Origin: a virus
Taxonomy: Duplodnaviria; Heunggongvirae; Uroviricota; Caudoviricetes
IMG/VR virus record: IMGVR_UViG_2778261035_000005
DNA: 64,000 nt
Strand: one strand, 5' to 3'
The position numbers and the translations under genes are program-made. Positions 12,383-56,140 of the stretch are shown in pieces (positions within the stretch are counted from its first letter, which is position 1; each line of letters begins with the position of its first letter). The notes beneath the pieces are model-generated. The model did no database searches. It saw only the letters and a program-made list of their open reading frames with translations, and had not been told where the DNA came from.

Positions 12383-12404
12383 TAATAAGTAAGTGATTAC
12401 CTAG
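12383..12404. promoter_or_regulatory. TAAGTA-family motif in divergent promoter region
   Basis: taataagtaagtgattacctag between helicase (-) and ParB-like (+) genes. Confidence 0.4.
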
Positions 12405-13102
12405 TGGATTGTAGCAATAAAATGGATGTAAAAATCACGATTTTGCAGGTTGATGTTGCCAACCTTCGCCCGAATACCTGGAACACCAATTCGGTTGGTG
12501 CGCAGAATTTTGAAAAACTGAAAGGTTCTATCGAAAAATTGGGCTTTTTTAAGCCAATTTTGGCTCGTGAACTTGAAGATGGATTTTTTGAAATCCTCGG
12601 CGGCGAACATCGCTGGCGTGCTGCTATTGAGCAAGGAATTTCAACGGTTCCGGTGCTTTCTGTGGGCAAAATTAGCGATGTCGTAGCTAAACAGATGTCA
12701 CTGGTGGACAACGAGCGATACGGTGAAGACGACCAAATCGCATTGCAACGCTTCATTGAAGAAATTCAGTCAGAACTTGACTATCAACTGTCTGAAATCG
12801 CCCCGTATGACGACGAAATCTCGATGGTTTTAGCAAAAGAGGCGGCAATCGACCTTGAAGCACTGGAGGCGTTGTCTCGTGGTAGTGATGAGCCTGTCGA
12901 TACCGACAAACGAGAGAAAACCGAACGTGTGGGTGCGGAACATCAGACCATGCGCTTCAAAGTAACTTTCGATGCGTCAGATCGTGTTGCAGAAACCATA
13001 AAAAACATCATCAAAGAGCAGGCTATTAACACCGGTAATGAAATGGAGAACGCTGGTGAGGCTCTGGTGTGGCTGGTCGACTACTACAAGGAGCGTATGT
13101 AA
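12404..13102 (+). CDS. ParB/Srx-like nuclease-domain protein
   Basis: ParB N-terminal domain signature ...FEILGGEHRWRAA...; GTG 12404 or ATG 12422. Confidence 0.7.
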   Translation: MDCSNKMDVKITILQVDVANLRPNTWNTNSVGAQNFEKLKGSIEKLGFFKPILARELEDGFFEILGGEHRWRAAIEQGISTVPVLSVGKISDVVAKQMSLVDNERYGEDDQIALQRFIEEIQSELDYQLSEIAPYDDEISMVLAKEAAIDLEALEALSRGSDEPVDTDKREKTERVGAEHQTMRFKVTFDASDRVAETIKNIIKEQAINTGNEMENAGEALVWLVDYYKERM

Positions 13103-13770
13103 TGACCAAAAAGTTTGAAATCGTATATCGCGACCCGGCAGATCTTATTCCCTATGAGATGAATGCCAAAAAGCATGATGAACAGCAGATCCGAGATCTA
13201 GCCGCAGCCATTAAAAAGCGCGGATTTGACCAGCCAATTACGGTCGATAAGAACGACGTAATTATTACTGGCCACGGCCGCCGTGAGGCTGCAATTTTTG
13301 CTGGACTTGAGCGCGTACCGGTTATTGTTCGCGATGATCTCAGTGATGACGAGGTTCGTGCGAAGCGCCTTGAAGATAACCGACTTGCCAGCATTGATTA
13401 CGATGCAATTAAGCTACAGAAAGAGCTTGAGTCGCTTGTTCTGGACGATATCGAGGTTTTCGGCTTTGAAGAGCGTGAGTTGAATGTTCTCGTTGGCAGC
13501 ATGACAGAAGAAATGGACACCGACTCGCTAGTTATCGATCTTGGCGAAGAAACTAAACGACAGAAGGATGAACACACCGAGATCAGTCGTGAAGTTGCAG
13601 CGGAAGAAGTACGTGTTGTCGACGTATTGGGCTTTAAAACGCTTCCTGCTGGCTCTGCCATTGTTGTTGGTGATTTGCTTGCCCACATGGAAGAAATGAC
13701 GGGAGAAAGCGGGGTAGACGCATTTGTGGCATATGCGGAGAAGATCTCTTCCGGGGAGATGGCTGCATGA
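13102..13770 (+). CDS. second ParB/Srx-like domain protein
   Basis: ...VIITGHGRREAAIFAG... ParB-like motif; start overlaps previous stop (taATGa). Confidence 0.7.
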   Translation: MTKKFEIVYRDPADLIPYEMNAKKHDEQQIRDLAAAIKKRGFDQPITVDKNDVIITGHGRREAAIFAGLERVPVIVRDDLSDDEVRAKRLEDNRLASIDYDAIKLQKELESLVLDDIEVFGFEERELNVLVGSMTEEMDTDSLVIDLGEETKRQKDEHTEISREVAAEEVRVVDVLGFKTLPAGSAIVVGDLLAHMEEMTGESGVDAFVAYAEKISSGEMAA

Positions 13771-14432
13771 GCAAATACATCATCAACGTATCGTTTCAGA
13801 CACGCGTAAATAAAACCACGCGCACGTTGGAAATCGCTGAGTCGTTCGGGCTTGGCCTGGACGAAAAAGAGTGGACGCTTTACGACAATCTGGAGCTGGA
13901 AGTGAAGCAGGGCGATGTGGTGTACATCACCGGCCAATCCGGTTCCGGCAAATCCGTTGTGCTGCGCGAGTTGCAACGACAGATGAAGGATGAAGGGCTG
14001 TCTGTAGCCTCCATCGATGATTTTACCTTCGATAATGAGGTTAACGTCATCGATCAGTTGGGCAAAACGACCAGCGATGCGCTTGGGTTGTTATCTATGG
14101 CTGGTCTGAACGATGCATATCTGTTTGTTCGCAAGCCTTCTGAAATGTCAGACGGTCAGAAATATCGTCTCAAGATTGCCAAACTGATTGAGTCAGGCGC
14201 TAAAGTGTGGGCTGCTGACGAGTTCGGCGCTGTTCTCGACCGTGTAACCGCTCAGGTTGTGGCGTCTAACCTCCAGCGTGCCGCTCGAAAGGTTGGTGCG
14301 ACGGTAATGGTGGCGACGACTCACGAAGACCTGAAGAACGCGCTGCGCCCGGATATGCAGATCACCAAGCACTACAAAGAACGCGTGAAGGTGGAATATC
14401 ACAATGGTAGTCATGATGAGGTCCATTCATGA
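13767..14432 (+). CDS. ABC-type P-loop ATPase
   Basis: Walker A GQSGSGKS, ABC-signature-like MSDGQKYR, Walker B VWAADEF, H-loop ATTHE; overlaps neighbours by 4 nt. Confidence 0.7.
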   Translation: MSKYIINVSFQTRVNKTTRTLEIAESFGLGLDEKEWTLYDNLELEVKQGDVVYITGQSGSGKSVVLRELQRQMKDEGLSVASIDDFTFDNEVNVIDQLGKTTSDALGLLSMAGLNDAYLFVRKPSEMSDGQKYRLKIAKLIESGAKVWAADEFGAVLDRVTAQVVASNLQRAARKVGATVMVATTHEDLKNALRPDMQITKHYKERVKVEYHNGSHDEVHS

Positions 14433-15319
14433 CGGACATCATCATTAAACGCTACCGCCCTGAAGAGTTTCCGCGTCATCTGGACTTTCTGGAGCGAATG
14501 ACTGTTACAAAGGGAACTGTAGAGGACTGGCACGCTCTTAAGTCGCTTCACTACAAAACAGACGGCAAACCTTTCGCGCCAACTTACTATCGCTGCGAAC
14601 TTGATGACCGTCTGGTGGGCGTCGTGGTTATGGCTTACCCGAAACTACTGTTGGCACCTCGCCACCGCATGTTTCCTAAGTTGAAACCAACCACTAATAC
14701 CACCGTGGCTAACCAGTACTGGGGTCGGTACGTGAATAACAACTTTGCGGTGATCAGTCGCTCAGTTGTGGATACTCAGTATCGTGGCGTAGGCGTCTCT
14801 TATCGAATGATTAACCTGGTTAGCAGGATGCATGACCGGCCAATCATTGAGATCCAGTCCTCGATGAGCAAATACAATCCCTTCGCCATGAAAGCAGGGT
14901 TTAAGTTCATCCGCCCTGAGCGACCGAAGAGCTATGAAAGTGCACTGCGTGTATTCCAGCGCCATTTCCGTTCCGACCCGGGTGATAACGAGGCGATCGT
15001 CAAAGAGTTGTTCGCAATGAGCGAGTCTCGTCGTCGCCGTGCACTGCGTGATCTGGTGGCGGACTACCACAAGAACAGTTCCCTGGCAAAAGCTGGGCGG
15101 AATCGTGGCACGACGATTCAGGACATTGCCGACAGTCTGGTGGACGAGGCCAGCATTGTGAAGCTGCTCAAGGACATTCACAACCTGAGCTTTACGTCTC
15201 CGTTGTATGGTGTGTACCGAAACCCTGACTTTGGCCGTCGACTGCCTGACACGCTGCCACTGCTGGCATTCGACAAACAACCTTTGGATAAACCGTTAGA
15301 AATTGCTTTACCGGCATAA
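14429..15319 (+). CDS. GNAT-fold-like protein (296 aa)
   Basis: Acetyl-CoA-binding-like motif VVDTQYRGVGVSYRMINLV; weak assignment. Confidence 0.45.
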   Translation: MTDIIIKRYRPEEFPRHLDFLERMTVTKGTVEDWHALKSLHYKTDGKPFAPTYYRCELDDRLVGVVVMAYPKLLLAPRHRMFPKLKPTTNTTVANQYWGRYVNNNFAVISRSVVDTQYRGVGVSYRMINLVSRMHDRPIIEIQSSMSKYNPFAMKAGFKFIRPERPKSYESALRVFQRHFRSDPGDNEAIVKELFAMSESRRRRALRDLVADYHKNSSLAKAGRNRGTTIQDIADSLVDEASIVKLLKDIHNLSFTSPLYGVYRNPDFGRRLPDTLPLLAFDKQPLDKPLEIALPA

Positions 15320-15328
15320 GGATTTGCC

Positions 15329-15595
15329 ATGACGTTAACCGATAAACAAAAGGACATCATCAAAACGCTCAATCTCGGTTATGAGCGAGGTCATCTACTT
15401 GACCTGGACGAATTGCTTGAAGTTTTGCCGTACAAGACAACCAAGCAAAGTATCCAGTTCTCAATTCGCGCTCTGATAAAAAAGGGGCTGGTGGAGAAAG
15501 GGCATACGCGCCAACGCAGTGACAATCGCTATCACCGCCGGACTCTTGGGTTAACCACTTTAGGTCGAGCCAAAGCGAAGTTACTGGTGATGTAA
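15329..15595 (+). CDS. small basic protein, possible winged-helix DNA binder
   Basis: 88-aa ORF; helix-rich basic segment SIRALIKKGLVEKG. Confidence 0.4.
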   Translation: MTLTDKQKDIIKTLNLGYERGHLLDLDELLEVLPYKTTKQSIQFSIRALIKKGLVEKGHTRQRSDNRYHRRTLGLTTLGRAKAKLLVM

Positions 15596-15626
15596 TCGGT
15601 CTGGGAGCTTATTTAAAGACCTGCAT

Positions 15627-15675
15627 CTGTATATATAAATAATAAGTAACTTATTAAATATATACGGAAGCAGGC
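15627..15675. repeat. ~50-bp AT-rich palindromic element, copy 1
   Basis: ctgtatatataaataataagtaacttattaaatatatacggaagcagg; near-identical copy at 47203-47252. Confidence 0.75.
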
Positions 15676-15710
15676 TTCGTAAGACATGCCAGACCTAATT
15701 AAACACCCCA

Positions 15711-15750
15711 GAAAACAAGTTGGTTAGCAGATGCAGTAAACAAGTTGTTT
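15711..15750 (+). promoter_or_regulatory. operator palindrome plus half-site (GAAAACAAGTTGG ... AAACAAGTTGTTT)
   Basis: Same motif family as left-arm cassettes. Confidence 0.5.
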
Positions 15751-15751
15751 T

Positions 15752-15780
15752 AGAGCGCATGGACGCGCTCTGTGTGTTTT
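15752..15780 (+). terminator. terminator-like hairpin in leader of packaging operon
   Basis: agagcgc-atggac-gcgctct followed by gtgtgtttt, 12 nt before TerS start. Confidence 0.45.
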
Positions 15781-15790
15781 AGAGGGATCT

Positions 15791-16423: not shown

Positions 16424-17679
16424 TGGCAATCCCGTCCTCGCTCAGTCTTGTGCAACTGCATTCTGGACAGATGAAAGTCTTCCAGTCTCCGCATCGATTT
16501 AAAGTTGTTTGTGCTGGTCGACGCTGGGGAAAATCCCGGTTGTCGATCTCCACTATTATTCGTGCGGCGGCAAAGGAAAAAAAGCAAAGGGTCTGGTATG
16601 TCGCTCCTACATACCAGATGGCTCGCCAGATTTTGTGGGACGATCTACAGGAAGTTCTGCCTCGTAAGTGGGTTAGGAAAAAGAACGACACCACGATGAC
16701 AATCGTGTTGAAGAACGGTTCGGAGATCGCCCTCAAAGGTGCTGATAAGCCTGACACTCTGCGCGGCGTAGCGTTGCATTTTGTAGTGCTTGATGAATTT
16801 CAGGATATGAAGGCTGACACCTGGTACAAGGTGTTACGACCTACTCTTTCATCGACACGCGGCGGTGCACTGATCATTGGTACGCCAAAAGGCTTCTCGG
16901 AATTTCACAAACTGTGGACTATAGGCCAGAACGTAGAGCTGCAAAGAAAGGGACAGTGGAAGAGCTGGCAGTTTGTAACTGCCGATTCTCCGTTTGTACC
17001 TACGGCGGAAATTGAAGCTGCTAAGAACGATATGGACCCGAAATCGTTCGCTCAGGAGTACCTGGCGAGCTTTGAGAACATGTCCGGGCGCGTTTACTAC
17101 CCGTTCGATCGTAACGTGCATGTAAAACCGCTTCAGTTCAACCCTCGGTTGCCTATATGGGTAGGGCAGGACTTCAACATTGACCCGATGTCTTCAGTAA
17201 TTTTGCAACCTCAGCCAAATGGTGAGCTATGGGCAATTGATGAATTGGTGCTCTTTTCCTCTAACACGGCAGAGGTTTGTGATGAGCTTGAGAGACGCTT
17301 CTGGCGCTGGAAATCACAGATAACGGTATTTCCAGATCCGGCAGGTGCTTATCGCCAACATGCTCGCGGGGAGTCTGACGTCGACATATTCAAAGAGAAG
17401 GGATTCTTACGTGTCGATTATTCGAAAAAGCACCCGCCAATTGCGGATCGTGTTAATGCTGTTAACCGAATGCTGATGACCGCATCTGGAGATATCCGGC
17501 TGTATATCGATCCGAAGTGCAAGCATTTGATTGATTCACTGGAAAAAGTCATCTACAAGCCTGGAACACGAGATATGGATAAGACAGGTGGCATTGAGCA
17601 TAGTGCAGACGCATTGGGCTATCCAGTACATCGTAGGTATCCAGTCAAAAACCGTGTTATTCTTGGTGGTTCTCGATAG
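16423..17679 (+). CDS. terminase large subunit
   Basis: Walker A CAGRRWGKS, Walker B HFVVLDEF, C-terminal nuclease-like region. Confidence 0.85.
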   Translation: MAIPSSLSLVQLHSGQMKVFQSPHRFKVVCAGRRWGKSRLSISTIIRAAAKEKKQRVWYVAPTYQMARQILWDDLQEVLPRKWVRKKNDTTMTIVLKNGSEIALKGADKPDTLRGVALHFVVLDEFQDMKADTWYKVLRPTLSSTRGGALIIGTPKGFSEFHKLWTIGQNVELQRKGQWKSWQFVTADSPFVPTAEIEAAKNDMDPKSFAQEYLASFENMSGRVYYPFDRNVHVKPLQFNPRLPIWVGQDFNIDPMSSVILQPQPNGELWAIDELVLFSSNTAEVCDELERRFWRWKSQITVFPDPAGAYRQHARGESDVDIFKEKGFLRVDYSKKHPPIADRVNAVNRMLMTASGDIRLYIDPKCKHLIDSLEKVIYKPGTRDMDKTGGIEHSADALGYPVHRRYPVKNRVILGGSR

Positions 17680-17705
17680 GTAAGTAATTATCTAAGGTTA
17701 TTCAA

Positions 17706-19280
17706 ATGGAATTGAACGACAAACAAATTAAGGATCTGGTGGCGCGACGCCACCCGGAATACGAAAAGAAAAAAGAACATTGGGACTTCCTCGCCAGCAC
17801 TTACGCTGGCGGGCGTGGTTGGTTTACAGACAATATCTTTCGTTACTTTAAAGAGGGAGATCAGGAGTTTAAGGAGCGAGTTGAACGTGCTTATCGCTTC
17901 AACCATACTCGTGAGGTGGTAAACCTCATCAACAAATATCTCTTTAAAGAAGACATTCATAGAAATATCGAAGAGGCACCAGAGCAGATCCGCATTTTCT
18001 GGAAACGTGCGACTCGCCAGAATGCCTCTATTGACTCATTTATGGCCGCTATTGATTTGCAGTCGTCTATTTACGGTCGCATATGGGTTGTTGTCGATAG
18101 CACGATGAGTGGTGATGTTGAGTCAGTAGCTGACGAGAAAAAGAAAGATGCTCGCGCCTACGCCTACTGGATTTCACCTCAGCAAATGCTGGATGTGGCA
18201 TGGGACGACGACGGGAATATGTTGTGGGCGTTAATTGTGGAAGTCGCTCGTGATGACGCAGATCCTTTTACTTCTACAGGTCAGGAATACCAACGTTATC
18301 GTCTGTGGACACAAAACGAGTGGTATCTGTTCCGTGAGGAAGTGAAGAAGGGCGCTGGTGGAGCAGGTCGCCGTCAGGCAAAAGTTATTTTAGAGGATAG
18401 CGGTGAGCATAATCTCGGCGTAGTTCCTGTGTTTCCTGTTGATTGTATTGGAGAAAGTGAATCACCGTATTTCAGCCCATCGTTGATCGATGATATCGCT
18501 TATCTTGATCGTGCGGTTGCAAACTATCTGTCAAACCTTGATGCCATTATTCAGGATCAGACATTTAGCCAGTTGGCTATACCGGTACAGTCGCTTTTAC
18601 CTGGTGATGAAAACCACACTAAAGTGCTTGAAATGGGCACAAAGCGAGTCTTCACCTACGATTCTGAAGGTGGAAACCAGCCGTTTTATCTGTCACCAGA
18701 CCCGAAACAAGCTCAGATGATCATCACTACGATTAAGACGGTGATTAACGAAATCTACCATTCAGTTGGTGTAGCTGGTGAGCGAACGAAGCAGGACAAC
18801 GCACAGGGAATCGATAATTCATCTGGTGCCGCAAAAATGTATGACTTCCAGCGTGTAAATAGCTTGCTTGTCACAAAAGCAGAGCGTCTGGAAAGGGCTG
18901 AACGCCAAATCATGCTACTGGTTGCGAAATGGATGGGGGTAGATCTGGACGAAGACCACTCTTTAATTGCGTATCCAGAAAGTTTCGATATTCGTGGCCT
19001 TACTGATGAATTTTCTGTTGCCGAGAAACTGTCATTACTTCAGGCACCGGACTCTGTACGTCGTCACCAGATGGAAATGCTTATTGAGAAGATTTTCCCG
19101 AACATTACTGAGGCGATGAAAAAGGAATTTGATAAAGATCTCTTGAATTTTCCTCCAAAAAATGATCTAAATACCCTTGAAAATAAGTCAGTACTTACTT
19201 ATGATCGTGGTACAGCCCAAGAAAGCGGGCAAGATCAACCCCGAGGGAATGGGGACTCATCTACTCAAGAGAACGAGTGA
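17706..19280 (+). CDS. portal protein
   Basis: 524-aa ORF directly after TerL; size and order. Confidence 0.7.
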   Translation: MELNDKQIKDLVARRHPEYEKKKEHWDFLASTYAGGRGWFTDNIFRYFKEGDQEFKERVERAYRFNHTREVVNLINKYLFKEDIHRNIEEAPEQIRIFWKRATRQNASIDSFMAAIDLQSSIYGRIWVVVDSTMSGDVESVADEKKKDARAYAYWISPQQMLDVAWDDDGNMLWALIVEVARDDADPFTSTGQEYQRYRLWTQNEWYLFREEVKKGAGGAGRRQAKVILEDSGEHNLGVVPVFPVDCIGESESPYFSPSLIDDIAYLDRAVANYLSNLDAIIQDQTFSQLAIPVQSLLPGDENHTKVLEMGTKRVFTYDSEGGNQPFYLSPDPKQAQMIITTIKTVINEIYHSVGVAGERTKQDNAQGIDNSSGAAKMYDFQRVNSLLVTKAERLERAERQIMLLVAKWMGVDLDEDHSLIAYPESFDIRGLTDEFSVAEKLSLLQAPDSVRRHQMEMLIEKIFPNITEAMKKEFDKDLLNFPPKNDLNTLENKSVLTYDRGTAQESGQDQPRGNGDSSTQENE

Positions 19281-19301
19281 TAAGTAACAAAAGGAATTTT
19301 T

Positions 19302-20189: not shown

Positions 20190-20214
20190 CATCTAAATCA
20201 AAGGGAATTGATAG

Positions 20215-21090: not shown

Positions 21091-21122
21091 TCAGTGTGGT
21101 AGATAGGTAGTTATCTATGTTA

Positions 21123-21150
21123 AAGGGTGGGCTATACGCCCACCCTTTTT
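21123..21150 (+). terminator. rho-independent terminator after capsid gene
   Basis: aaagggtgggc-tata-cgcccaccctttttg. Confidence 0.75.
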
Positions 21151-24669: not shown

Positions 24670-24677
24670 CTCAATTG

Positions 24678-24693
24678 GTAAGTATATACTTAC
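24678..24693. promoter_or_regulatory. perfect palindrome GTAAGTATATACTTAC
   Basis: Member of TAAGTA motif family, upstream of major tail gene. Confidence 0.45.
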
Positions 24694-31152: not shown

Positions 31153-31234
31153 GCATCTGGATAAGTAAGTACTAATTTACTATCATTGTGGCGCTGACAG
31201 GATGTTAGCGCCTACTTATTTCAAGGATGAAACA

Positions 31235-38049: not shown

Positions 38050-38142
38050 TAGTAGAAAAAAATATTTACATCGGTAAAAATAAGTAGGTACTTACTTTAT
38101 GGTGGGCAAGGATAGCCCACCAAATCAAGGAGCATATTCAAC

Positions 38143-42290: not shown

Positions 42291-42310
42291 GATAGGTAAG
42301 TATATACCTA
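42291..42310. promoter_or_regulatory. palindrome ATAGGTAAGTATATACCTAT
   Basis: TAAGTA-family motif upstream of lysis cassette. Confidence 0.45.
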
Positions 42311-42373
42311 TAATTGAAAGGAGAAGTGTGATATAAATCCGCCATCCCGATTTGACTTTTCATGGAGGAAAAC

Positions 42374-42697
42374 ATGTCGAACGAGATGGCGGGCGTTACA
42401 ACAGAGCAAGTTGAGCGTATAGCCGCGATCGTTGCTCGGGAGGTTGTTGGCAAATTAGGTAAAGAGCTACGTGAAGAAATTGGCCAGGAGGTCAATGATC
42501 AGCTGAAAACCTACTTTGGTGATATGACCCCGGCGCAACATAGTATTCAACACTCCAATCTGGACAAACTCCTTAACCGGTTAGATTCCATCTCAAGTGG
42601 GTTCTTTGGCGGCATTGTTTCTAAAATAACGTCGTTCATTATTACCGCACTGCTTTTGGGGTTAGCCGCGTATGGCGTAAAAAGTGGACTGCAATAA
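42374..42697 (+). CDS. holin candidate (small protein with C-terminal TM helix)
   Basis: ggagg RBS before ATG 42374; hydrophobic ITSFIITALLLGLAAYGV; first gene of lysis cassette. Confidence 0.4.
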   Translation: MSNEMAGVTTEQVERIAAIVAREVVGKLGKELREEIGQEVNDQLKTYFGDMTPAQHSIQHSNLDKLLNRLDSISSGFFGGIVSKITSFIITALLLGLAAYGVKSGLQ

Positions 42698-42710
42698 CAG
42701 GAGATCAAGG

Positions 42711-43403
42711 ATGAAGACTCCGAGAGGCATTCGTAATAATAACCCCGGTAATCTTGATAAAGGATCACCGTGGCAAGGTCTGGTTGCGAATCCAGACGAA
42801 CCGCGCTTTTGCACGTTTAAAGACCCTGTTTGGGGGATTCGTGCGCTGGCGGTGACTCTAATTACCTACCACGATAAACGTCGCGCAAAAGACGGCACAA
42901 GTATCGATACCATTCGTGAAGTTATTGAACGCTGGGCACCGCCGAATGAAAACAATACTGACGCCTACATTAATGAGGTTTCTAAAGCCGTTGGTGTAAC
43001 CGCAGACATGATCATCGATCTGCATGATTACGACATCCTTCGACCTTTGGTTGAGGCAATCATTCGCCACGAGAATGGCCGAGGCCCGCTAAAAACGCTG
43101 AACACCTGGTATGCGGCAGAAGTTATTGAGGAAGGTCTGCGTCGAGCTGGCGTTGTTAAGCCGGTGAAAACCGTGAAGGCTGTTCCTGTAACTAAAGAAA
43201 CCGCAGGCGCAACTGTTACAGCAGGTATTGGTCTGGCGCAGCTGGCCGATGTTATGCCGCAGGTTTCCGCTGCTATGGATAAAGCACAAGGTCATATCTC
43301 TAGCGGGGATACAGTACGCATCATCTTCGGTATTGCCACTATTGTTGTGGCAGGATTCATTGCCTGGTCGCAGGTAAGAAAACATCAGAAAGGGATGGTC
43401 TAA
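42711..43403 (+). CDS. endolysin candidate with C-terminal membrane anchor (family not recognised)
   Basis: Position holin-X-Rz-Rz1; caggag RBS before ATG 42711; C-terminal hydrophobic helix. Confidence 0.35.
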   Translation: MKTPRGIRNNNPGNLDKGSPWQGLVANPDEPRFCTFKDPVWGIRALAVTLITYHDKRRAKDGTSIDTIREVIERWAPPNENNTDAYINEVSKAVGVTADMIIDLHDYDILRPLVEAIIRHENGRGPLKTLNTWYAAEVIEEGLRRAGVVKPVKTVKAVPVTKETAGATVTAGIGLAQLADVMPQVSAAMDKAQGHISSGDTVRIIFGIATIVVAGFIAWSQVRKHQKGMV

Positions 43404-43404
43404 T

Positions 43405-43656
43405 ATGCTAGGCAGCCTGATGACAAAGCTAAAAGTTGCTTTGATTACGCTGGCTGCCGTTCTTTTCGTTCTTGTCGGCGCTTACACGATGGGCGGGAAT
43501 GCGGCGCGACGAGCAATGGAAGAGAAGGCAAAACAGGAAGACAGAAAACGACTTCAAAGCACAGTGGAAGTGGTGAATGAGACGAGCAATAAAATACGTC
43601 AGAAAGATGCTTCTGCCGTTCATCGTGAGTTGTATGATAAGTGGGTGCGTCATTAA
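43405..43656 (+). CDS. i-spanin (Rz-like)
   Basis: N-terminal TM helix then charged coiled-coil-like segment; 83 aa. Confidence 0.6.
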   Translation: MLGSLMTKLKVALITLAAVLFVLVGAYTMGGNAARRAMEEKAKQEDRKRLQSTVEVVNETSNKIRQKDASAVHRELYDKWVRH

Positions 43657-43792
43657 ACCACAAACCGCCAGCGTATTGTTCTGCGATGGAGCTGGGCCTA
43701 TCTATATCAGCAATAATGATGTGATGACCGAAGAAACCGAACGCCAAATCCTTTTTCACAATACGATGGGAGAGAGAGTTTGCGGTTGGTGA
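43607..43792 (+). CDS. o-spanin (Rz1-like lipoprotein), overlapping Rz out of frame
   Basis: Lipobox MISGC; starts inside Rz in another frame and extends beyond it. Confidence 0.55.
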   Translation: MLLPFIVSCMISGCVIKPQTASVLFCDGAGPIYISNNDVMTEETERQILFHNTMGERVCGW

Positions 43793-43799
43793 TGCGAAG

Positions 43800-43817
43800 T
43801 TCCCCTCACTTGAGGGG
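43800..43817. terminator. bidirectional terminator between lysis genes and toxin gene
   Basis: cccctcacttgagggg hairpin. Confidence 0.55.
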
Positions 43818-43823
43818 AGTACA

Positions 43824-44345
43824 TTATTCTTCGAACAATTTTTCGATAGATTTTGTAGGATAGAACAAAGAACGCTCGTTGTTACCAACCAGCTGGATAA
43901 AGCCTAAACTTTTATAAAACGCCTTGGCTTTGTCATTTAACGCCTCAACGAAAAGTCCATGAATGCCTACAGCAAGAGATGCATTGTACACAACGCGCAT
44001 TGCATGTGTTACAAGCATTGAGCCAAATCCTTGACCTTGAAGGGACTTGTCCAAAGCCAGCCTACCCAAAGTAACACTTGGAACATTCCGATAAGGTACC
44101 TTCTTTTGCTGGCTTCTTGAAGGTAAGGACTCCTTTTCAAAGCAGCTACCTGACAAAGTGTAATACCCTAACACTTTTGGTCTGCCTTCTTTCGTGCAAA
44201 GCACATAAGCGCGAAGAATTTTTCCCTCATGCTGCCTTTTTAAGTGGTTGGTTAAAAAGGCATTTAGTGATTCTTCACCGCAATCAAAACCATTCAAATC
44301 ATAATCTTTCTCTCCAGAGAAAATTTCTATCTTTATATTATCCAC
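43824..44345 (-). CDS. GNAT-family acetyltransferase toxin (TacT/AtaT-like)
   Basis: GNAT motif GRLALDKSLQGQGFGSMLV; immediately downstream of DUF1778-type antitoxin. Confidence 0.75.
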   Translation of the reverse strand: MDNIKIEIFSGEKDYDLNGFDCGEESLNAFLTNHLKRQHEGKILRAYVLCTKEGRPKVLGYYTLSGSCFEKESLPSRSQQKKVPYRNVPSVTLGRLALDKSLQGQGFGSMLVTHAMRVVYNASLAVGIHGLFVEALNDKAKAFYKSLGFIQLVGNNERSLFYPTKSIEKLFEE

Positions 44346-44890: not shown

Positions 44891-44906
44891 GAAAACAAGT
44901 TGTTTC
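44891..44906 (+). promoter_or_regulatory. operator palindrome GAAAACAAGTTGTTTC upstream of parA
   Basis: Same palindrome family as left arm. Confidence 0.5.
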
Positions 44907-44940
44907 AGACAATAATAATAGACGCAAAGGGAACTCTCCA

Positions 44941-47187: not shown

Positions 47188-47202
47188 TTTAATTACCTGT
47201 TT

Positions 47203-47252
47203 CTGTATATAAATAATAAGTAACTTATTAAATATATATACGGAAGCAGGTC
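47203..47252. repeat. ~50-bp AT-rich palindromic element, copy 2
   Basis: ctgtatataaataataagtaacttattaaatatatatacggaagcagg. Confidence 0.75.
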
Positions 47253-47358
47253 TTTTAAAAGACACCCACCAGAACAACTCCCTTCCGTTTCCACTTCCAA
47301 AAACTGCCACCAGTCGCTATCATCCGCTCATTGTGATAAGTAAGTAACTACCTACCAG

Positions 47359-48108: not shown

Positions 48109-48118
48109 CTAATACTAG

Positions 48119-48134
48119 AAAACAATTTGTTTAA
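48119..48134 (+). promoter_or_regulatory. operator palindrome GAAAACAATTTGTTTA upstream of helicase
   Basis: Same palindrome family. Confidence 0.5.
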
Positions 48135-48151
48135 AAAACAAAGGAAAGCAC

Positions 48152-49492: not shown

Positions 49493-49573
49493 AAAATAAG
49501 CGTGGAGAACACCTCCACGCTTGATTCATTGGTGAAACAACTTTTCTTTTGCCAAACCACAAAAGAAAAACAC

Positions 49574-52125: not shown

Positions 52126-52539
52126 ATGAGCAAAAATAAGCTGATTTTAACAGGAGCTTTATTGTCTTTGTTTGCTTTAGTGGGGTGTAAGCCTACAGAC
52201 GAGAAGGCTATTGCTCTGGGCCAACAAGCAATTGCGGATGATATGAAAGATCCCACGTCGGTGATGTTTAGGAAAGATAAGTTTGTCAGGACTGATCATG
52301 ACGATGGGAGTGTGACAGGCTTTGTGTGCGGAGAATTGAACGCCAAAAATGGCTTTGGTGCATACGTGGGCTATCACTCATATGTTGTTGAACTCGAAAT
52401 GAAGCCAAAGGGCATGTTTTCGAAAGGGGTGGTATACAAAATCCTATCGAAGTCGTTGGCACCTAATGATCCTCATGACTTACAGCGTTATAAGCAGGTC
52501 TACAGAAAGATGTGCAACAGTGAGGCTGTAGCTCATTAA
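52126..52539 (+). CDS. lipoprotein
   Basis: Lipobox LVGC in MSKNKLILTGALLSLFALVGC; RBS aaggga. Confidence 0.65.
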   Translation: MSKNKLILTGALLSLFALVGCKPTDEKAIALGQQAIADDMKDPTSVMFRKDKFVRTDHDDGSVTGFVCGELNAKNGFGAYVGYHSYVVELEMKPKGMFSKGVVYKILSKSLAPNDPHDLQRYKQVYRKMCNSEAVAH

Positions 52540-52664
52540 TGGTGAATGCCGGGCAGACTATAAGCCCGGCATCTTCGTATAGGGAACTATTGCGCCTAAA
52601 ATGATAAGTAGATACATACTTAGTTTTTTGTAAGAATACTTTCATCTGTTAGCTAGGAGTTGGT

Positions 52665-53441: not shown

Positions 53442-53508
53442 GCTCTCTGTGTGTCGTTTTTTACGCAAACAATGATAGGTAAGCACAAGATTATTTCTGG
53501 CGGTAATT

Positions 53509-53979
53509 GTGAAAGCTGATTTATCAAAAATCCCTTCTATTTCAGGAAATAACGGTTATTCACTTCGTTGTGAGGAAGTAAAGATAAACGGTGAGTCGGC
53601 ATATTGCAGCTATTCCGTTTGCCAGCACACCATTCTTGCCTTCAAAGAAAACCGTCTTCCTCGAACTTCTTTCCAGTCGTGCGCAACCGCTATTAAAGCA
53701 GGCAAATGCAAGGCGTTAAAAATGATGGTTGAAGAGATTCGTAAAGGAGAATCTCTGTATTTCGAAGATATGACCGCACTCATTAAGGAGGTTGAAGAAC
53801 GGAATAAACAAGCCAGAACTATAAAACGAAAACGTGACAGTGTAACGATTAATAGCATGGTTAAGAAGAGCGCCACATCACAAACAGCGATCACTGACGT
53901 GTATGCGGCGTTGCTTGAAGAAACAACAAAAGAAACACATGAGCAAATCGATCAACATATGGAGGCAAAACAACAATGA
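53509..53979 (+). CDS. hypothetical protein with Cys-rich N-terminus
   Basis: ORF (GTG start); C-x11-C-x4-C-x17-C arrangement. Confidence 0.45.
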   Translation: MKADLSKIPSISGNNGYSLRCEEVKINGESAYCSYSVCQHTILAFKENRLPRTSFQSCATAIKAGKCKALKMMVEEIRKGESLYFEDMTALIKEVEERNKQARTIKRKRDSVTINSMVKKSATSQTAITDVYAALLEETTKETHEQIDQHMEAKQQ

Positions 53980-55298
53980 AAAAGTTGATCGCACTTAAGC
54001 ATAAGCTGGACGAAATGAAAGCTATGGGAACCAATGCAAAAAAAGAGGCATTGGCCAACATGGATGACTTCGAGCAAAGCATGGTTTCATTGATGCTCAA
54101 CCCTTTCATCCGTTTTGGGGTAAAGAAATACAAAGTGGTAGAGCCGCTTAGTGAGTCCGTCCCAAGTGACGAAAAAGCCATTGATATACTGAATAAGCTG
54201 GCCTCTCGCGAGCTGACGGGGAACGCAGCAATAGCTGCTGTTGAGTCTATCGTGGCGTCAATGTGCGCCGATGGGCAGGACGTCTTCCGTCGTTTCCTCT
54301 TAAAAGATCCGAAAGCTGGCGTTGGGATTAGCCTATGCAACAAGGTTTTTGAAAATCCCATTCCGAAATTCGAGGTGCAGCTGGCGTCACCGTATAAAGA
54401 AAAAGGCGACAAATACCCCTTCAAGCCAAACCCTAAAGCAAAATGGCCGATGATTGGCAGCCTTAAGCTCGATGGTTTGCGAGTAATTTGCGAGGTTATT
54501 GTTGACGAGGAAGAGGTTAACTTCCTTTCTCGTACTGGTAATCCAATCACGTCTCTCGATCACTTAAAGCCAGCCATGCTCGAATTAGGCAAACTTTCAG
54601 GCCACAAACACATCTTCTTCGATGGTGAAGGAACAGCCGGTTCATTTAACCAGTCCGTATCTGCATTGCGCAAAAAGAACGTGCAGGCAATTGGCGCTAT
54701 TTATCATGTTTTCGACTTCTTCCTACCGGAATGGCGAGCACAGGCTAAATCCAAAGAGTATGCAAAGACAGGTATGAAGCTGAAAGAGCGCCTGGCTATG
54801 CTGGTGGCGTTGTTCAAAAACGATCGCAGTGAAGGCTACACACAAGACATTCACCTGCATCCGTTCTACATCATCCATAGCCACGAAGACTTCATCGAAC
54901 GCTTCATGAAACGCCTGGACGATAACGAAGAAGGGGAGATGGGCAAAGATCCGAACTCTGTTTACGAGTTTAAACGTACCCGCAGCTGGTGGAAGTTAAA
55001 AGACGAAGACTCAGAAGATGGTGAAATTATCGACTTTGAGCCGGGCGACCCGGACTCTGGTTTTGCCAACACGCTTGGAAAAATTGTTATTCGCCTTGAA
55101 AACGGTGTGATTGTTCGTGCGAGCGGCATTAAGCATAAATATCTGGACGAGATCTGGAACAACAAAGAGAAGTACCGTGGTCGTATTGTCGAGGTTCATT
55201 GTCACGAGAAAACGCCGGATGGCAGCTTACGCCACCCACGACTGAAATGGCCGCGTTGCTTACGCGATACAGAAGATCGAATCGGAGATAAAGAATGA
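53976..55298 (+). CDS. ATP-dependent DNA ligase
   Basis: Adenylation motif I KLDG (SLKLDGLRVI) with downstream nucleotidyltransferase-like motifs. Confidence 0.75.
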   Translation: MKKLIALKHKLDEMKAMGTNAKKEALANMDDFEQSMVSLMLNPFIRFGVKKYKVVEPLSESVPSDEKAIDILNKLASRELTGNAAIAAVESIVASMCADGQDVFRRFLLKDPKAGVGISLCNKVFENPIPKFEVQLASPYKEKGDKYPFKPNPKAKWPMIGSLKLDGLRVICEVIVDEEEVNFLSRTGNPITSLDHLKPAMLELGKLSGHKHIFFDGEGTAGSFNQSVSALRKKNVQAIGAIYHVFDFFLPEWRAQAKSKEYAKTGMKLKERLAMLVALFKNDRSEGYTQDIHLHPFYIIHSHEDFIERFMKRLDDNEEGEMGKDPNSVYEFKRTRSWWKLKDEDSEDGEIIDFEPGDPDSGFANTLGKIVIRLENGVIVRASGIKHKYLDEIWNNKEKYRGRIVEVHCHEKTPDGSLRHPRLKWPRCLRDTEDRIGDKE

Positions 55299-55474
55299 TG
55301 CTCGGCTGGATGATTGCATTTTTAGCAGTTGGTTTTTTCATCGGTATTGTGGTGATGTCCAGTTGCATTAATGACTACATTAAAAACGGTGTTATAGAAA
55401 GACGCGGTCGCATTTATCGCATTGTAGAAATAACCAACACCGTGAAGGAGATTAAGGATGATCGTATTAAGTAA
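55295..55474 (+). CDS. small single-TM protein (59 aa)
   Basis: ATG overlaps ligase stop; paralogous to 55670 ORF; below ORF-track size cut-off. Confidence 0.35.
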   Translation: MMLGWMIAFLAVGFFIGIVVMSSCINDYIKNGVIERRGRIYRIVEITNTVKEIKDDRIK

Positions 55475-55673
55475 ACGGGAGAAGGAAACACTTTATGAAA
55501 TCAGTAAGTGGCCGGAGTTCCCTGAGTACTGGAAGCCTAAAACGCGGGCTAAGTTAGAGCGGTTAGGGTTGGTTGCAAACGTTTCTGAAACGAGGGGGTC
55601 GGCCAACTACCAGTTAACTGATAAAGGGAAAGTATTGCTACAGCAATTAGTAGAATCAGGAGCGTTAAAATGA
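55458..55673 (+). CDS. small protein (71 aa)
   Basis: Good RBS aaggag before ATG 55458. Confidence 0.5.
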   Translation: MIVLSKREKETLYEISKWPEFPEYWKPKTRAKLERLGLVANVSETRGSANYQLTDKGKVLLQQLVESGALK

Positions 55674-55822
55674 TTCCATACATCTCATTAGCTTTTATGG
55701 GTGGCTTTCTTATCGGCTTCGGCATCTGTCGTGATTTAATTAAGCAGGAACTTAAAACCAAAACACTGTGCATCGGAAAGCGTGTGTATCGGGTAGTTCA
55801 TGAAACAAAGGTTAGAAAATGA
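55670..55822 (+). CDS. small single-TM protein (50 aa)
   Basis: MIPYISLAFMGGFLIGFGIC...; begins with the 13-bp repeat AATGATTCCATAC. Confidence 0.4.
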   Translation: MIPYISLAFMGGFLIGFGICRDLIKQELKTKTLCIGKRVYRVVHETKVRK

Positions 55823-56109
55823 GCAATTTAACTTCTTGGGACTGGTGGTTGGCCACCTATTTCTTAGCGGCCGGAGTCGCATTCGCCTTTTACGTAGGTC
55901 AGTTAGTCGTAAAACTGTTGCTGATTAAATTTGCTAGTCATAAACGTATCGATGATGGTCTGTGGCGTCTTGGCACCCTGGTGGAAACTCGCTACGGGCA
56001 ACTTAAGGAGAACGAAACCATTACTATCCAAGCGAAACGATTCACTGCCACCATCACAAGAACACCTAGTCGTAGAGTGGCCTTGATCAAAAAAGTCGCA
56101 ACCGAATAA
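55819..56109 (+). CDS. membrane protein (96 aa)
   Basis: ATGA overlap with previous ORF; N-terminal TM helix. Confidence 0.5.
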   Translation: MSNLTSWDWWLATYFLAAGVAFAFYVGQLVVKLLLIKFASHKRIDDGLWRLGTLVETRYGQLKENETITIQAKRFTATITRTPSRRVALIKKVATE

Positions 56110-56115
56110 AAACAC

Positions 56116-56140
56116 AATGATAAGTATTTACTTACTTATC
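56116..56140. promoter_or_regulatory. palindrome GATAAGTA-N6-TACTTATC
   Basis: gataagtatttacttacttatc. Confidence 0.45.

What the first reader, a model, noticed from the sequence alone, without database searches (positions are those of the whole stretch)
12383..56140. Family of TAAGTA-containing palindromes at most module boundaries
Intergenic motifs built on (GA)TAAGTA...TACTTA(TC) occur before many operon starts: 12383, 15645, 17675, 19277, 21100, 24678, 31159, 38087, 42291, 47217, 47337, 52601, 53471 and 56116. Several are perfect palindromes. This suggests an element-specific promoter consensus or a dimeric activator site distinct from the AAAACAA-TTGTTT operator.
Basis: seen in the sequence. 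Interest (0 to 1): 0.5.

Follow-up and report, generated by a model that had tools for sequence, protein, structure and literature searches.

The report
Dispersed 20-bp operator palindromes, phage-plasmid
An SSU5-like phage-plasmid of E. coli carries about 22 copies of one 20-bp palindrome in the gaps before most of its lytic genes and at the promoter of its own repressor gene, most likely the binding sites through which that repressor keeps the virus silent; this is a familiar kind of control that has not been described for this widespread plasmid family.

Summary
The repeat family is real. The motif is a 20-bp dyad, ATARGTAAGT|ACTTACYTAT. The window holds 18 strand-hits with at most one mismatch, against 0.07 expected.

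The window matches an E. coli SSU5/pSLy3-type phage-plasmid. That plasmid has about 22 copies, almost all intergenic. They lie at the same gene junctions in Salmonella SSU5, Klebsiella pJN2-26 and Yersinia pestis pMT1. A distant Acinetobacter relative has about 33 copies of a variant, AGTAAGCGCTTACT, at the same junctions.

Two (15645, 47217) belong to an unrelated 55-nt hairpin repeat.

The two arms vary independently, so this is a DNA site for a dimeric protein, not an RNA hairpin.

The most perfect core copy (61849-61862) lies one base downstream of the -10 of the XRE-family repressor gene's promoter. It is conserved there in six lineages examined and, with one change, in pMT1.

Elsewhere the palindrome overlaps -10-like hexamers or fills promoter spacers, in varying registers.

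Best reading (about 0.5): dispersed operators of the prophage repressor, analogous to the P1 C1 operators.

Rivals that remain open are an activator-dependent promoter element and a ParB-like binding site.

Novelty: a new member of a known kind.

The parts
12385..12404 (.). Palindrome ATAAGTAAGTGATTACCTAG in the 82-bp gap between the divergent UvsW-like helicase operon (-) and the ParB-like/late operon (+). A TATAAT hexamer abuts its left edge.
   Evidence: An orthologous site lies in the same divergent gap in Klebsiella (34775) and Acinetobacter (50310, inside TTGAAA-18-TATAAT).
17676..17695 (.). Palindrome ATAGGTAAGTAATTATCTAA filling the 26-nt gap between terL and the portal gene. It contains the terL stop codon.
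   Evidence: The palindrome is conserved at this junction in SSU5 (2031), Klebsiella (40580), pMT1 (26541) and Acinetobacter (42978).
19183..19202 (.). Palindrome ATAAGTCAGTACTTACTTAT inside the 3' end of the portal gene. It lies exactly between TTGAAA (-35) and TATGAT (-10).
   Evidence: promoter-like match, 10 of 12; the same arrangement in SSU5 3544 and Klebsiella 42093.
21099..21118 (.). Degenerate palindrome GTAGATAGGTAGTTATCTAT after the major capsid gene. A terminator-like hairpin follows at 21125-21145.
   Evidence: The Klebsiella orthologue is a perfect ATAGGTAAGTACTTACCTAT.
24674..24693 (.). Palindrome ATTGGTAAGTATATACTTAC before the Ig-like tail gene. It overlaps TTGAAT-18-TATACT.
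31161..31180 (.). Palindrome ATAAGTAAGTACTAATTTAC(TATC) between the tail genes M and L. It overlaps TGGATA-17-TATCAT, and a hairpin follows at 31190-31212.
38080..38099 (.). Palindrome ATAAGTAGGTACTTACTTTA before the 1342-aa tail fibre gene. A hairpin follows at 38101-38121.
42292..42311 (.). Palindrome ATAGGTAAGTATATACCTAT (14 of 14 core positions) before the holin/lysis genes. TATAAT overlaps its right edge.
47336..47355 (.). Palindrome ATAAGTAAGTAACTACCTAC 22 nt before the first gene of the helicase/primase block. It lies downstream of the parA operon, which is expressed in the lysogen.
   Evidence: PMC9928086 for expression in the lysogen
52604..52623 (.). Palindrome ATAAGTAGATACATACTTAG, followed by TGTAAGAAT (extended -10-like).
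56120..56139 (.). Palindrome ATAAGTATTTACTTACTTAT (14 of 14 core positions). Downstream lie TATAAGAT and a conserved non-coding block at 56160-56189, upstream of the tRNA genes.
58889..58908 (.). Palindrome ATAGGTAATGACTCACCTAT in a divergent intergenic region.
61849..61862 (.). Perfect 14-bp core GGTAAGTGCTTACC one base downstream of the -10 of the XRE repressor promoter. On the minus strand the promoter reads TTTACA (61886-61891), 16 nt, TAATAT (61864-61869). Putative autoregulatory operator.
   Evidence: The core is conserved in six lineages, and in pMT1 with one change. It is the best core match in the whole plasmid.
61431..61817 (-). Gene for a 128-aa XRE/Cro-C1-type helix-turn-helix protein next to the integrase gene. 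Candidate binding protein and prophage repressor.
   Evidence: HTH_19; PHROG transcriptional regulator. (all full-length, high-scoring homologues whose contig length is informative lie on contigs of about 100-116 kb from Enterobacterales, consistent with SSU5-like plasmids; recognition helix nearly invariant). (present in essentially every related plasmid, deleted in the lytic isolate SSU5). Called the putative repressor and expressed in the lysogen in PMC9928086.
12422..13102 (+). ParB-like protein 1 (226 aa), with a ParB N-terminal domain and a Spo0J-like helix-turn-helix region. Rival candidate binding protein.
4859..4876 (.).
53475..53483 (+).
19279..19288 (+).

Best explanation
**What it is.** The palindromes are a dispersed set of operators, that is, DNA binding sites for a dimeric regulator encoded by the phage-plasmid itself. 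The most likely binding protein is the 128-aa XRE-family prophage repressor encoded at 61431-61817.

**How it would work.** In the plasmid-prophage state, repressor dimers occupy about 22 sites. These sites overlap the -10 or spacer of weak-(-35) sigma-70 promoters, or simply sit in the short gaps at the head of nearly every lytic transcription unit. Those units cover the helicase operon, the ParB/terminase/head/tail/lysis operons, and the replication, recombination and nucleotide-metabolism genes. Occupancy blocks RNA polymerase binding or passage. A copy with a perfect core but poor outer bases covers the start region of the repressor's own promoter and would give negative autoregulation. 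Plasmid-maintenance and lysogen-expressed genes (toxin-antitoxin, parA, rep, the CYRAN_43 homologue) lack the site.

**Shown**
- The motif exists and is not due to chance.
- It is placed in intergenic DNA.
- It is conserved at orthologous positions in other lineages.
- Its arms do not covary.
- A copy lies at the repressor promoter.

**Inferred**
- Which protein binds it.
- Whether binding represses or activates.
For: **The motif is real and intergenic**
-.

**Same motif at the same junctions in relatives**
- SSU5 has 16 sites against 0 expected. Klebsiella pJN2-26 has 18. pMT1 has 9.
- Motif columns are 82.5% identical across three lineages, against 57% for the flanking intergenic columns.
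- A distant Acinetobacter phage-plasmid (TerL 60% identical) has about 33 copies of the variant AGTAAGCGCTTACT at the same junctions. A degenerate copy lies in the spacer of its XRE-homologue promoter, and that homologue's recognition helix is only partly conserved.

**A DNA site for a dimer, not an RNA hairpin**
- 76.4% of cells are paired, against 76.7% in shuffles.

**Link to the repressor**
- A perfect core sits one base after the -10 of the XRE promoter. It is conserved in six lineages while the rest of that intergenic region diverges, and it is the best core match in the plasmid.
- XRE behaves as the lysogeny gene. It is found in 865 plasmids, with per-genus counts that mirror those of TerL. 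None of 822 related plasmids has the int-XRE deletion seen in the lytic isolate SSU5. It is expressed in the LF82 lysogen (PMC9928086).

**Geometry fits a repressor**
- Promoter-like patterns overlap the palindrome in the direction of the genes at 28 of 63 sites, against 8 of 63 on the other strand.
- The register varies from site to site. Examples are TTGAAA-17-TATGAT and the Acinetobacter TTGAAA-18-TATAAT, where the palindrome fills the spacer.
- P1 C1 operators show the same variety of registers in the P1 annotation: Oref lies in a spacer, OrepL over a -10 and Ossb after a -10.
Against: **No binding data**
- The assignment to XRE rests on one autoregulatory-looking site and on co-occurrence. 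Every SSU5-specific gene shares that co-occurrence.

**Weak promoters**
- Most sites lack a recognisable -35. Matches are no better than background. Strong constitutive promoters that would need repression are therefore not evident.

**Features an activator model would also predict**
- A -10-like hexamer sits at a fixed position next to the palindrome in about half the sites.
- In Acinetobacter, TATAAT abuts the palindrome in the direction of the genes.

**Awkward placements**
- Several late-region copies lie upstream of, not downstream of, terminator-like hairpins.

**No covariation evidence for XRE**
- The XRE recognition helix is almost invariant among the enterobacterial lineages. The one variant plasmid examined (P0032) showed no clear change in the motif.

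**A rival protein fits equally well**
- A ParB-like protein with a helix-turn-helix region is encoded right next to one site, is 87-88% conserved and fits just as well.

**SSU5**
- SSU5 keeps all the sites without XRE, although the deletion may be recent.
Confidence: 0.5

Rival explanations
1. The palindrome is a promoter element that depends on an activator. An unidentified dimeric phage protein binds it, centred about 19-20 bp upstream of the transcription start. This substitutes for the missing -35 and lets host RNA polymerase use the adjacent -10 (TATCAT or TATTAT; TATAAT in Acinetobacter). The architecture resembles the Lpa-dependent late promoters of P1. The copy at the XRE promoter would then switch the repressor off during lytic growth.
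For: - About half the sites have a -10-like hexamer at fixed positions, starting at position -3 or 18 of the 20-mer, and no -35.
- In Acinetobacter, TATAAT abuts the palindrome on the gene side in about 40% of sites.
- P1 late promoters consist of a 9-bp inverted repeat, AAGT(G/T)ACTT, then 4 nt, then the -10. The half-site letters AAGT/ACTT match the centre of this motif.
- Sites precede the head, tail and lysis genes, as late promoters do.
Against: - The flanks are symmetric. The -10-like hexamers are equally frequent on both strands (33 against 31, and 34 against 35).
- The register relative to the clearest -35/-10 pairs varies.
- The palindrome fills spacers of optimal length, 17-18 bp, which is a repressor position.
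- Sites lie 10-20 nt from start codons and upstream of terminator hairpins.
- The same motif precedes replication and nucleotide-metabolism genes as well as late genes.
- There is no Lpa homologue, and no candidate activator has been identified.
Confidence: 0.2
2. The palindromes are loading or binding sites for the element's ParB-like protein or proteins (12422-13770). This would resemble the KorB OB sites of RK2, the Noc sites of Bacillus or the dispersed centromeres of N15. The function would be silencing, DNA organisation or packaging rather than classical operator control.
For: - ParB-like protein 1 aligns with Spo0J over both the N-terminal domain and the helix-turn-helix region.
- A palindrome lies 20-30 nt upstream of its gene in E. 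coli, Klebsiella and Acinetobacter.
- The protein is 87-88% conserved across lineages that share the motif.
- Placement of the sites without regard to promoter, terminator or ribosome-binding-site geometry would suit a role at the level of DNA structure.
Against: - The 20-26-bp site is longer than known parS, OB or Noc sites.
- The conserved copy at the XRE promoter start is explained more simply by the XRE protein.
- The bias of overlapping promoter-like patterns towards the gene direction points to transcription.
- The ParB-like genes head the late operon, so their products would be scarce in the prophage.
Confidence: 0.12
3. The palindromes act as RNA hairpins in the transcripts, as processing, stability, translational-operator or antitermination signals. 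The binding partner might be the FljA-like RNA-binding protein encoded at 9479-10003.
For: - The sites lie in 5' untranslated and intercistronic regions, some directly abutting Shine-Dalgarno sequences.
- The element encodes a full-length FljA-family protein (Pfam PF03614, E 1.5e-84).
- Salmonella FljA acts on fliC mRNA (PMC2652032).
Against: - The arms do not covary, and A-C mismatches are as common as G-U pairs.
- The predicted hairpins are weak, -4 to -8 kcal/mol.
- The motif is symmetric and works equally as a DNA site.
- The E. coli fliC 5' untranslated region has no such motif.
- The copy at the XRE promoter straddles the likely transcription start.
Confidence: 0.04

Closest known systems
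C1 repressor operators of phage-plasmid P1
   Same: - One repressor of a plasmid prophage controls many scattered operons through more than 15 dispersed copies of one operator.
- The operators lie in varied registers: inside the spacer, over the -10 or just after the -10 (P1 annotation).
- The repressor gene is itself under operator control.
   Different: - P1 operators are asymmetric 17-mers (ATTGCTCTAATAAATTT) bound by the unrelated C1 protein. Here the site is a 20-bp dyad and the candidate protein is a small XRE-type helix-turn-helix protein.
- In P1 the late genes are controlled indirectly through Lpa. Here the same motif also precedes the head, tail and lysis genes.
Stoperators of cluster A mycobacteriophages (L5 gp71); own knowledge, not checked here
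   Same: - Two to three dozen copies of the immunity repressor's site are spread through the genome.
- Copies lie in short intergenic gaps, including gaps inside long operons with no promoter nearby.
- They silence the whole prophage.
   Different: - Stoperators are asymmetric 13-mers whose orientation follows the direction of transcription. The present motif is symmetric.
- The hosts and proteins are unrelated.
Lpa-dependent late promoters of P1
   Same: - They have a -10 hexamer, no -35, and a short inverted repeat centred about 20 bp upstream of the start.
- The repeat is AAGT(G/T)ACTT, the same letters as the centre of this motif.
   Different: - The P1 box is 9 bp and its centre lies 9 nt before the -10. 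Here the site is 20 bp and its centre lies 7.5 nt before the nearest -10-like hexamer.
- There is no Lpa homologue.
- The motif is not restricted to late genes.
KorB OB sites of plasmid RK2 and the dispersed SopB centromeres of phage-plasmid N15 (own knowledge, not checked here)
   Same: - A ParB-family protein binds a dozen or so (KorB), or a few (N15), dispersed palindromes on a plasmid or phage-plasmid.
- Binding affects the expression of neighbouring operons.
- A ParB-like protein with a helix-turn-helix region is encoded here, next to one of the sites.
   Different: - Those sites are 13-16 bp long.
- Binding by the ParB-like protein is untested here.
- The element's true partition genes, parA plus a small protein, lie elsewhere.

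Membership tests
Dispersed prophage-repressor operator network (P1 C1 type, by function) | One sequence-specific site is repeated at many scattered loci of the element, far above chance. | tested here: met
   At least 13 of 14 core positions matched at 17 sites, against 0.15 expected. In the window, 18 strand-hits against 0.07 expected. Inside intergenic DNA, 11 against 0.055.
Dispersed prophage-repressor operator network (P1 C1 type, by function) | The sites overlap the core promoters of lytic operons. | tested here: inconclusive
   Promoter-like patterns matching at least 9 of 12 positions overlap 28 of 63 sites in the direction of the genes, against 8 of 63 on the other strand. Overall -35 matches are no better than background. 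No transcription-start data are available.
Dispersed prophage-repressor operator network (P1 C1 type, by function) | A copy of the site lies at the repressor gene's own promoter. | tested here: met
   GGTAAGTGCTTACC (61849-61862) lies one base after the -10 of the XRE promoter. It is conserved in six lineages and in pMT1.
Dispersed prophage-repressor operator network (P1 C1 type, by function) | The immunity repressor binds the sites. | not testable with these tools
   This needs gel-shift, footprint or ChIP experiments.
P1 C1 operator family (by homology) | The site is an asymmetric 17-bp operator, ATTGCTCTAATAAATTT, and a C1 protein is present. | tested here: not met
   The motif is a 20-bp dyad with an unrelated sequence. 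The candidate protein is XRE-type.
Mycobacteriophage stoperators | The site is asymmetric and its orientation follows the direction of transcription. | tested here: not met
   The motif and its flanks are symmetric.
P1 Lpa-dependent late promoters | An Lpa activator is encoded by the element. | tested here: not met
   tblastn and phmmer searches with P1 Lpa against the E. coli, SSU5, Klebsiella and Acinetobacter elements gave nothing below E = 0.4.
P1 Lpa-dependent late promoters | A 9-bp inverted repeat lies at a fixed distance of 4 nt upstream of a -10, and only before late genes. | tested here: not met
   The dyad is 20 bp. The register varies. The motif also precedes nrdA, thyX, dam, sbcD and the helicase/primase genes.
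ParB/KorB/Noc-type binding sites | The element encodes a ParB-family protein with a helix-turn-helix domain. | tested here: met
   Residues 7-154 of the 226-aa protein align with Spo0J 1vz0 residues 23-171, E 2.7e-9. Both ParB-like proteins match Pfam ParB_N.
ParB/KorB/Noc-type binding sites | The ParB protein binds the palindrome. | not testable with these tools
The site length of 20-26 bp is unlike the known 13-16-bp sites.
Structured RNA element, intrinsic terminator or REP-like hairpin | Base pairing is maintained by compensatory change; for terminators, a G+C-rich stem followed by a U run. | tested here: not met
   Pairing and covariation equal the shuffled control. The hairpins are weak and AT-rich with no T run. 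There is no Rfam match.
LexA (SOS) box | CTGT-N8-ACAG within a 20-bp dyad. | tested here: not met
   The consensus ATAAGTAAGTACTTACCTAT has no CTGT/ACAG. A true LexA box exists elsewhere on the plasmid, at L003:3554-3573.

The most novel reading that the evidence does not exclude
The dyad is not an operator but the core of a phage-specific promoter class. In this reading an unidentified dimeric factor of the element, unrelated to P1 Lpa, binds about 20 bp upstream of the start, replaces -35 recognition and switches on essentially the whole lytic programme. The same factor would shut off the repressor promoter. The factor and its site would have co-diverged between the enterobacterial form (GGTAAGT.ACTTACC) and the Acinetobacter form (AGTAAGCGCTTACT).
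Probability: 0.2. Interest if true: 0.6.

Novelty: new member of a known kind. Interest (0 to 1): 0.45.

Why it matters
SSU5/pHCM2/pSLy3/pKpn/pMT1-type phage-plasmids are found in hundreds of clinical Escherichia, Klebsiella, Salmonella, Enterobacter and Yersinia pestis isolates. About 800 records in the plasmid collection carry a TerL at least 80% identical. They carry resistance genes such as dfrA51.

The papers I could search and read say nothing about how their lysis-lysogeny decision is wired.

A defined operator and a candidate repressor give:
- a direct handle for ChIP, reporter and induction experiments;
- a sequence signature for recognising these elements and their transcription units;
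- an explanation for why the lytic isolate SSU5, which lacks the int-XRE module, behaves as a virulent phage.

The Acinetobacter variant offers a natural specificity swap with which to identify the binding protein.

Tried and rejected
**RNA hairpin or translational operator**
- Rejected by the covariation count and the weak folds.

**Target of the FljA-like protein**
- The E. coli fliC 5' untranslated region was fetched and has neither motif. There is no support for this idea, though it is not strictly excluded.

**Canonical sigma-70 promoter**
- For -10 hexamers fixed at the two preferred positions, -35 matches equal background and the mirrored strand.
- The positional profile of -10-like hexamers is symmetric.

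**P1 Lpa-type late promoters**
- The P1 late-promoter sequences were extracted.
- The box is similar (AAGTnACTT), but there is no Lpa homologue and the spacing differs.

**Covariation between the XRE recognition helix and the motif**
- The only enterobacterial variant helix (P0032) came with no clear change in the motif across 20 kb.

**Motif in unrelated phages**
- A scan of IMG/VR found it only in SSU5-like contigs.

**A second candidate operator in the immunity region**
- ATCTGATATAGAT occurs once only and is not repeated elsewhere.

**Literature**
- I found no description of this motif or of SSU5 regulation.
- One 2026 preprint on phage-plasmid heteroresistance that mentions 'promoter' often could not be opened.
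- The P1 genome paper is not held.

**PDB sequence searches**
- The search with XRE gave only a marginal hit to a LexA helix-turn-helix (E 0.068). The search with the FljA-like protein gave nothing.

Full report
**Identity of the window**

The window is an SSU5-like phage-plasmid of E. coli.
- Positions 16000-38000 are 100% identical to plasmid pWP4-S18-ESBL-07_2 (NZ_AP022089, 110,167 bp, circular).
- They are about 98% identical to Escherichia phage Cyrano, 80% to Salmonella phage SSU5 and 78% to Klebsiella phage-plasmids.
- After a 1-nt indel between about 5.5 and 6 kb, window coordinates equal record coordinates plus 3898.
- I fetched the whole plasmid, SSU5, Cyrano, Klebsiella pJN2-26, Yersinia pestis pMT1 and an Acinetobacter relative for comparison.

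**The observation**

TAAGTA is enriched: 42 copies against 22.8 expected. TAAGTA...TACTTA pairs are enriched more strongly: 5 against 0.04.

Aligning all instances gives a 20-bp dyad, ATARGTAAGT|ACTTACYTAT. It has weaker symmetric extensions, an A at position -2 and a T at position 23.

| Test | Observed | Expected |
|---|---|---|
| Window, core ATARGTA-N6-TAYYTAT, at most 1 mismatch | 18 strand-hits | 0.07 |
| Window, at most 2 mismatches | 39 | 1.8 |
| Whole plasmid, at least 13 of 14 core positions | 17 sites | 0.15 |
| Intergenic DNA shuffled within each region, at least 13 of 14 | 11 | 0.055 |
| Same, at least 12 of 14 | 26 | 0.8 |

Fifteen of the 17 whole-plasmid sites lie in the 13.6% of the plasmid that is intergenic.

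- Ten are full members.
- Two (19277, 53471) are half-sites.
- Two (15645, 47217) belong to a different element. This is a 55-nt AT-rich hairpin with a G+C clamp, at 15620-15674 and 47196-47250. Its folding energy is -26 kcal/mol with a z-score of about -7. A third copy lies elsewhere on the plasmid.

**Distribution and conservation**

The motif continues around the whole plasmid. It precedes the uvsY-like, SPFH, sbcD, nrdA, thyX and dam genes and others.

Counts of sites matching at least 13 of 14 core positions in relatives:
- SSU5: 16, against 0 in shuffles.
- Klebsiella pJN2-26: 18.
- pMT1 of Y. pestis: 9.

The sites occupy the same gene junctions in these elements. Examples are the terL/portal junction, the 3' end of the portal gene, the gap after the capsid gene, and the gaps before the tail genes, holin, nrdA and dam.

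In 12 orthologous triplets, 82.5% of motif columns are identical in all three lineages, against 57% of flanking intergenic columns. This figure carries an ascertainment caveat, because the sites were chosen by the motif.

A strict-pattern scan of IMG/VR found several hits per locus only in SSU5-like contigs. Unrelated contigs had single hits. The motif is therefore specific to this element family.

**DNA site or RNA structure?**

I aligned 56 sites from three lineages and scored them as an 11-pair hairpin.
- 76.4% of cells pair, against 76.7% after shuffling the 3' partners.
- The covariation score is 0.173, against 0.172 in shuffles.
- At the variable pair, A-C mismatches (18) are more frequent than G-U pairs (10).
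- Predicted hairpins are weak, -4 to -8 kcal/mol.

Each arm is conserved for its own sequence. That is the signature of a dimeric DNA-binding protein.

**Relation to promoters**

The motif and its flanks are symmetric. -10-like hexamers (TAnnnT, matching at least 4 of 6 positions) start at position -3 in 33 of 63 sites and at position 18 in 34 of 63. The numbers on the mirrored strand are the same.

For those two fixed -10 positions, -35 matches do not exceed background.

When any register is allowed, promoter-like patterns matching at least 9 of 12 positions overlap the dyad in the direction of the genes at 28 of 63 sites. On the other strand the figure is 8 of 63. Orthologous sites are not independent; the split is roughly 10 against 3 per genome.

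The clearest cases put the dyad exactly in the spacer:
- TTGAAA-17-TATGAT at 19177-19205.
- TTGAAA-17-TATTAT at record position 70886.

Other cases put a TTGATA-like -35 on the left arm and a -10 just beyond the right arm. In those cases transcription would start inside the 5' arm of the hairpin that follows. This may explain why some dyads lie upstream of terminator-like hairpins.

Three in-window sites lie only 20-27 nt from the next start codon. There a promoter for that gene hardly fits.

Variable register and spacer occupancy are what the P1 annotation shows for C1 operators (Oref, OrepL, Ossb). They are not what a fixed-geometry activator would show.

**The link to the repressor**

The 128-aa XRE-type protein encoded at 61431-61817 lies next to the integrase gene. 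It is the protein called the putative master repressor of Cyrano, and it is expressed in the LF82 lysogen (PMC9928086).

Its promoter reads TTTACA-16-TAATAT on the minus strand. One base later comes GGTAAGTGCTTACC (61849-61862), which is the exact core of the dyad.
- This core is conserved in E. coli, Klebsiella, Salmonella, Citrobacter and E. fergusonii elements and in a second E. coli type, while most of the rest of that intergenic region diverges.
- It is also conserved in pMT1, with one change.
- It is the best core match anywhere on the plasmid, but its outer triplets are poor. That is the pattern expected of a weaker, autoregulatory operator.

XRE homologues are almost all on plasmids and contigs of the genera that carry SSU5-like elements, with a few weak partial hits elsewhere such as Thauera. 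They occur in 865 plasmids, and the per-genus counts mirror those of TerL.

SSU5, which was isolated as a lytic phage, lacks the phoH-to-int-XRE segment.
- None of 822 related plasmids shares that deletion junction.
- The closest plasmid has int and XRE exactly there.

XRE is therefore very probably the lysogeny repressor. The only repeated, conserved dyad at its promoter is this motif.

Genes reported as expressed in the lysogen lack the dyad. These are the toxin-antitoxin genes, the genes downstream of parA in its operon, the CYRAN_43 homologue and the MinD-like gene.

**A distant relative**

The Acinetobacter baumannii plasmid p5847 has a TerL 60% identical and the same gene order.
- It carries about 33 copies of attATT-AGTAAGCGCTTACT-(t)ATAAT at the same junctions. 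These include terL/portal and parB/uvsW, where the dyad fills TTGAAA-18-TATAAT, and the gaps before sbcD and nrdA.
- The inner GTAAG..CTTAC is shared with the enterobacterial motif. The outer bases differ.
- Its XRE homologue is 38% identical and has a related but different recognition helix, NQNMVSFIVRGK against NANNLSLIKSGK.
- A degenerate copy of the local dyad lies in the spacer of that gene's promoter, TTGGGT-17-TATAAT.

This shows an old, conserved regulatory system. It is compatible with co-divergence of XRE and its site. The ParB-like protein has diverged to a similar degree, so this does not prove which protein binds.

**Rivals**

1. *Activator-dependent, -35-less promoters in the manner of P1 Lpa.* P1 late promoters are AAGT(G/T)ACTT, then 4 nt, then the -10. 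The half-site letters are strikingly similar. However, no Lpa homologue exists here, the spacing differs, and the motif also precedes early-type genes.
2. *Sites for the ParB-like protein encoded at 12422-13102.* It has a Spo0J-like helix-turn-helix region, and a dyad lies just upstream of its gene.
3. *RNA elements, perhaps bound by the FljA-family protein encoded at 9479-10003.* This is disfavoured and by the absence of the motif in the fliC leader.

**Verdict**

The repeat family is real and specific to the element, and it is a protein-binding dyad.

The best-supported mechanism, at about 0.5, is a dispersed operator network for the XRE prophage repressor. In function it is analogous to the P1 C1 operators and to mycobacteriophage stoperators, but it uses a symmetric site and an unrelated protein.

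I found no description of it in the searchable literature. It is a new member of a known kind. Interest is moderate, because the plasmid family is clinically widespread and its regulation appears unstudied.

Noticed in passing
window 1121-1188, 3971-3985, 4455-4471, 5358-5374, 6108-6124, 6593-6609, 15711-15752, 44891-44907, 48118-48134, 62346-62362: A second intergenic palindrome family, GAAAACAAnTTGTTT, gives 25 strand-hits against 1.3 expected. It lies 10-25 nt before ribosome-binding sites and is usually preceded by a GATAAT -10 and a GCCTTAT box. In places it flanks the promoter on both sides. It precedes parA (whose operon is expressed in the lysogen), dnaB, terS and many small ORFs, so it marks a separate regulon.
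   Followed up: partly
window 15620-15674 and 47196-47250 (third copy at about position 91243 of NZ_AP022089): A 55-nt AT-rich perfect hairpin closed by a G+C clamp (CCTGC...GCAGG). Its folding energy is -26 kcal/mol with a z-score of about -7. There are three copies per genome, conserved in SSU5, Klebsiella and pMT1. One lies before terS and one between the parA operon and the replication genes. Its function is unknown; a strong bidirectional terminator or insulator is one possibility.
   Followed up: partly
window 9479-10003 (-): A full-length member of the FljA family (repressor of phase-1 flagellin; Pfam PF03614, E 1.5e-84). It is conserved in the E. coli, SSU5, Klebsiella and pMT1 elements. 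It may silence host flagellin or act on phage mRNAs. The fliC leader has neither of the two phage motifs.
   Followed up: partly
window 56160-56189: A non-coding block, TTGTTTTCGTTGAGACGCGACTGTTTGAAC, is identical in E. coli, SSU5 and Klebsiella, although the surrounding DNA diverges. It lies just downstream of palindrome 56120 and upstream of the tRNA genes. It has no Rfam match. It could be the leader of the tRNA transcript or a small RNA.
   Followed up: no
L004 (SSU5) about 42600-44040, compared with L139 2644-9017: The type phage SSU5 has lost a segment of about 7 kb that holds phoH, grx, the integrase, the XRE repressor and most of the 70-aa divergent gene. None of 822 related plasmids has this junction. 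SSU5 is therefore probably a virulent deletion derivative and not a typical member of its group.
   Followed up: yes
L003:3554-3573 (NZ_AP022089 103554-103573, outside the window): A perfect LexA box, TACTGTATGCATATACAGTA, lies 17 nt upstream of a 129-aa gene that encodes only an S24 peptidase domain. This may be an SOS-controlled induction factor. The gene is absent from SSU5 and Klebsiella.
   Followed up: no
window 59511-60065 (-): This is the homologue of CYRAN_43, reported at 723-fold above local background in the LF82 lysogen (PMC9928086). It has no Pfam domain and matches PHROG 28788, of unknown function. It carries no palindrome upstream.
   Followed up: no
window 12422-15595: The late operon begins with two ParB-N-domain proteins, two ABC-type ATPases (one annotated in Cyrano as fused to an acetyltransferase domain) and an 88-aa protein, all ahead of terS. 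The arrangement is conserved as far as Acinetobacter. It could be a DNA-modification or packaging-accessory module.
   Followed up: no
L144:4259-4924 (Acinetobacter plasmid p5847): The Acinetobacter relatives encode a sigma-70 family protein between the MoxR-like ATPase gene and dnaE. The E. coli element has only a 180-bp gap at that position.
   Followed up: no
L145 (phage P1) 2678-2696, 17251-17269, 20969-20987, 31212-31230, 38318-38336, 46608-46626: The -22 boxes of the P1 late promoters read AAGT(G/T)ACTT. These are the same half-site letters as the centre of the SSU5-type dyad (AAGT|ACTT), even though there is no Lpa homologue here. This may be coincidence or convergent use of the same sequence.
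   Followed up: partly
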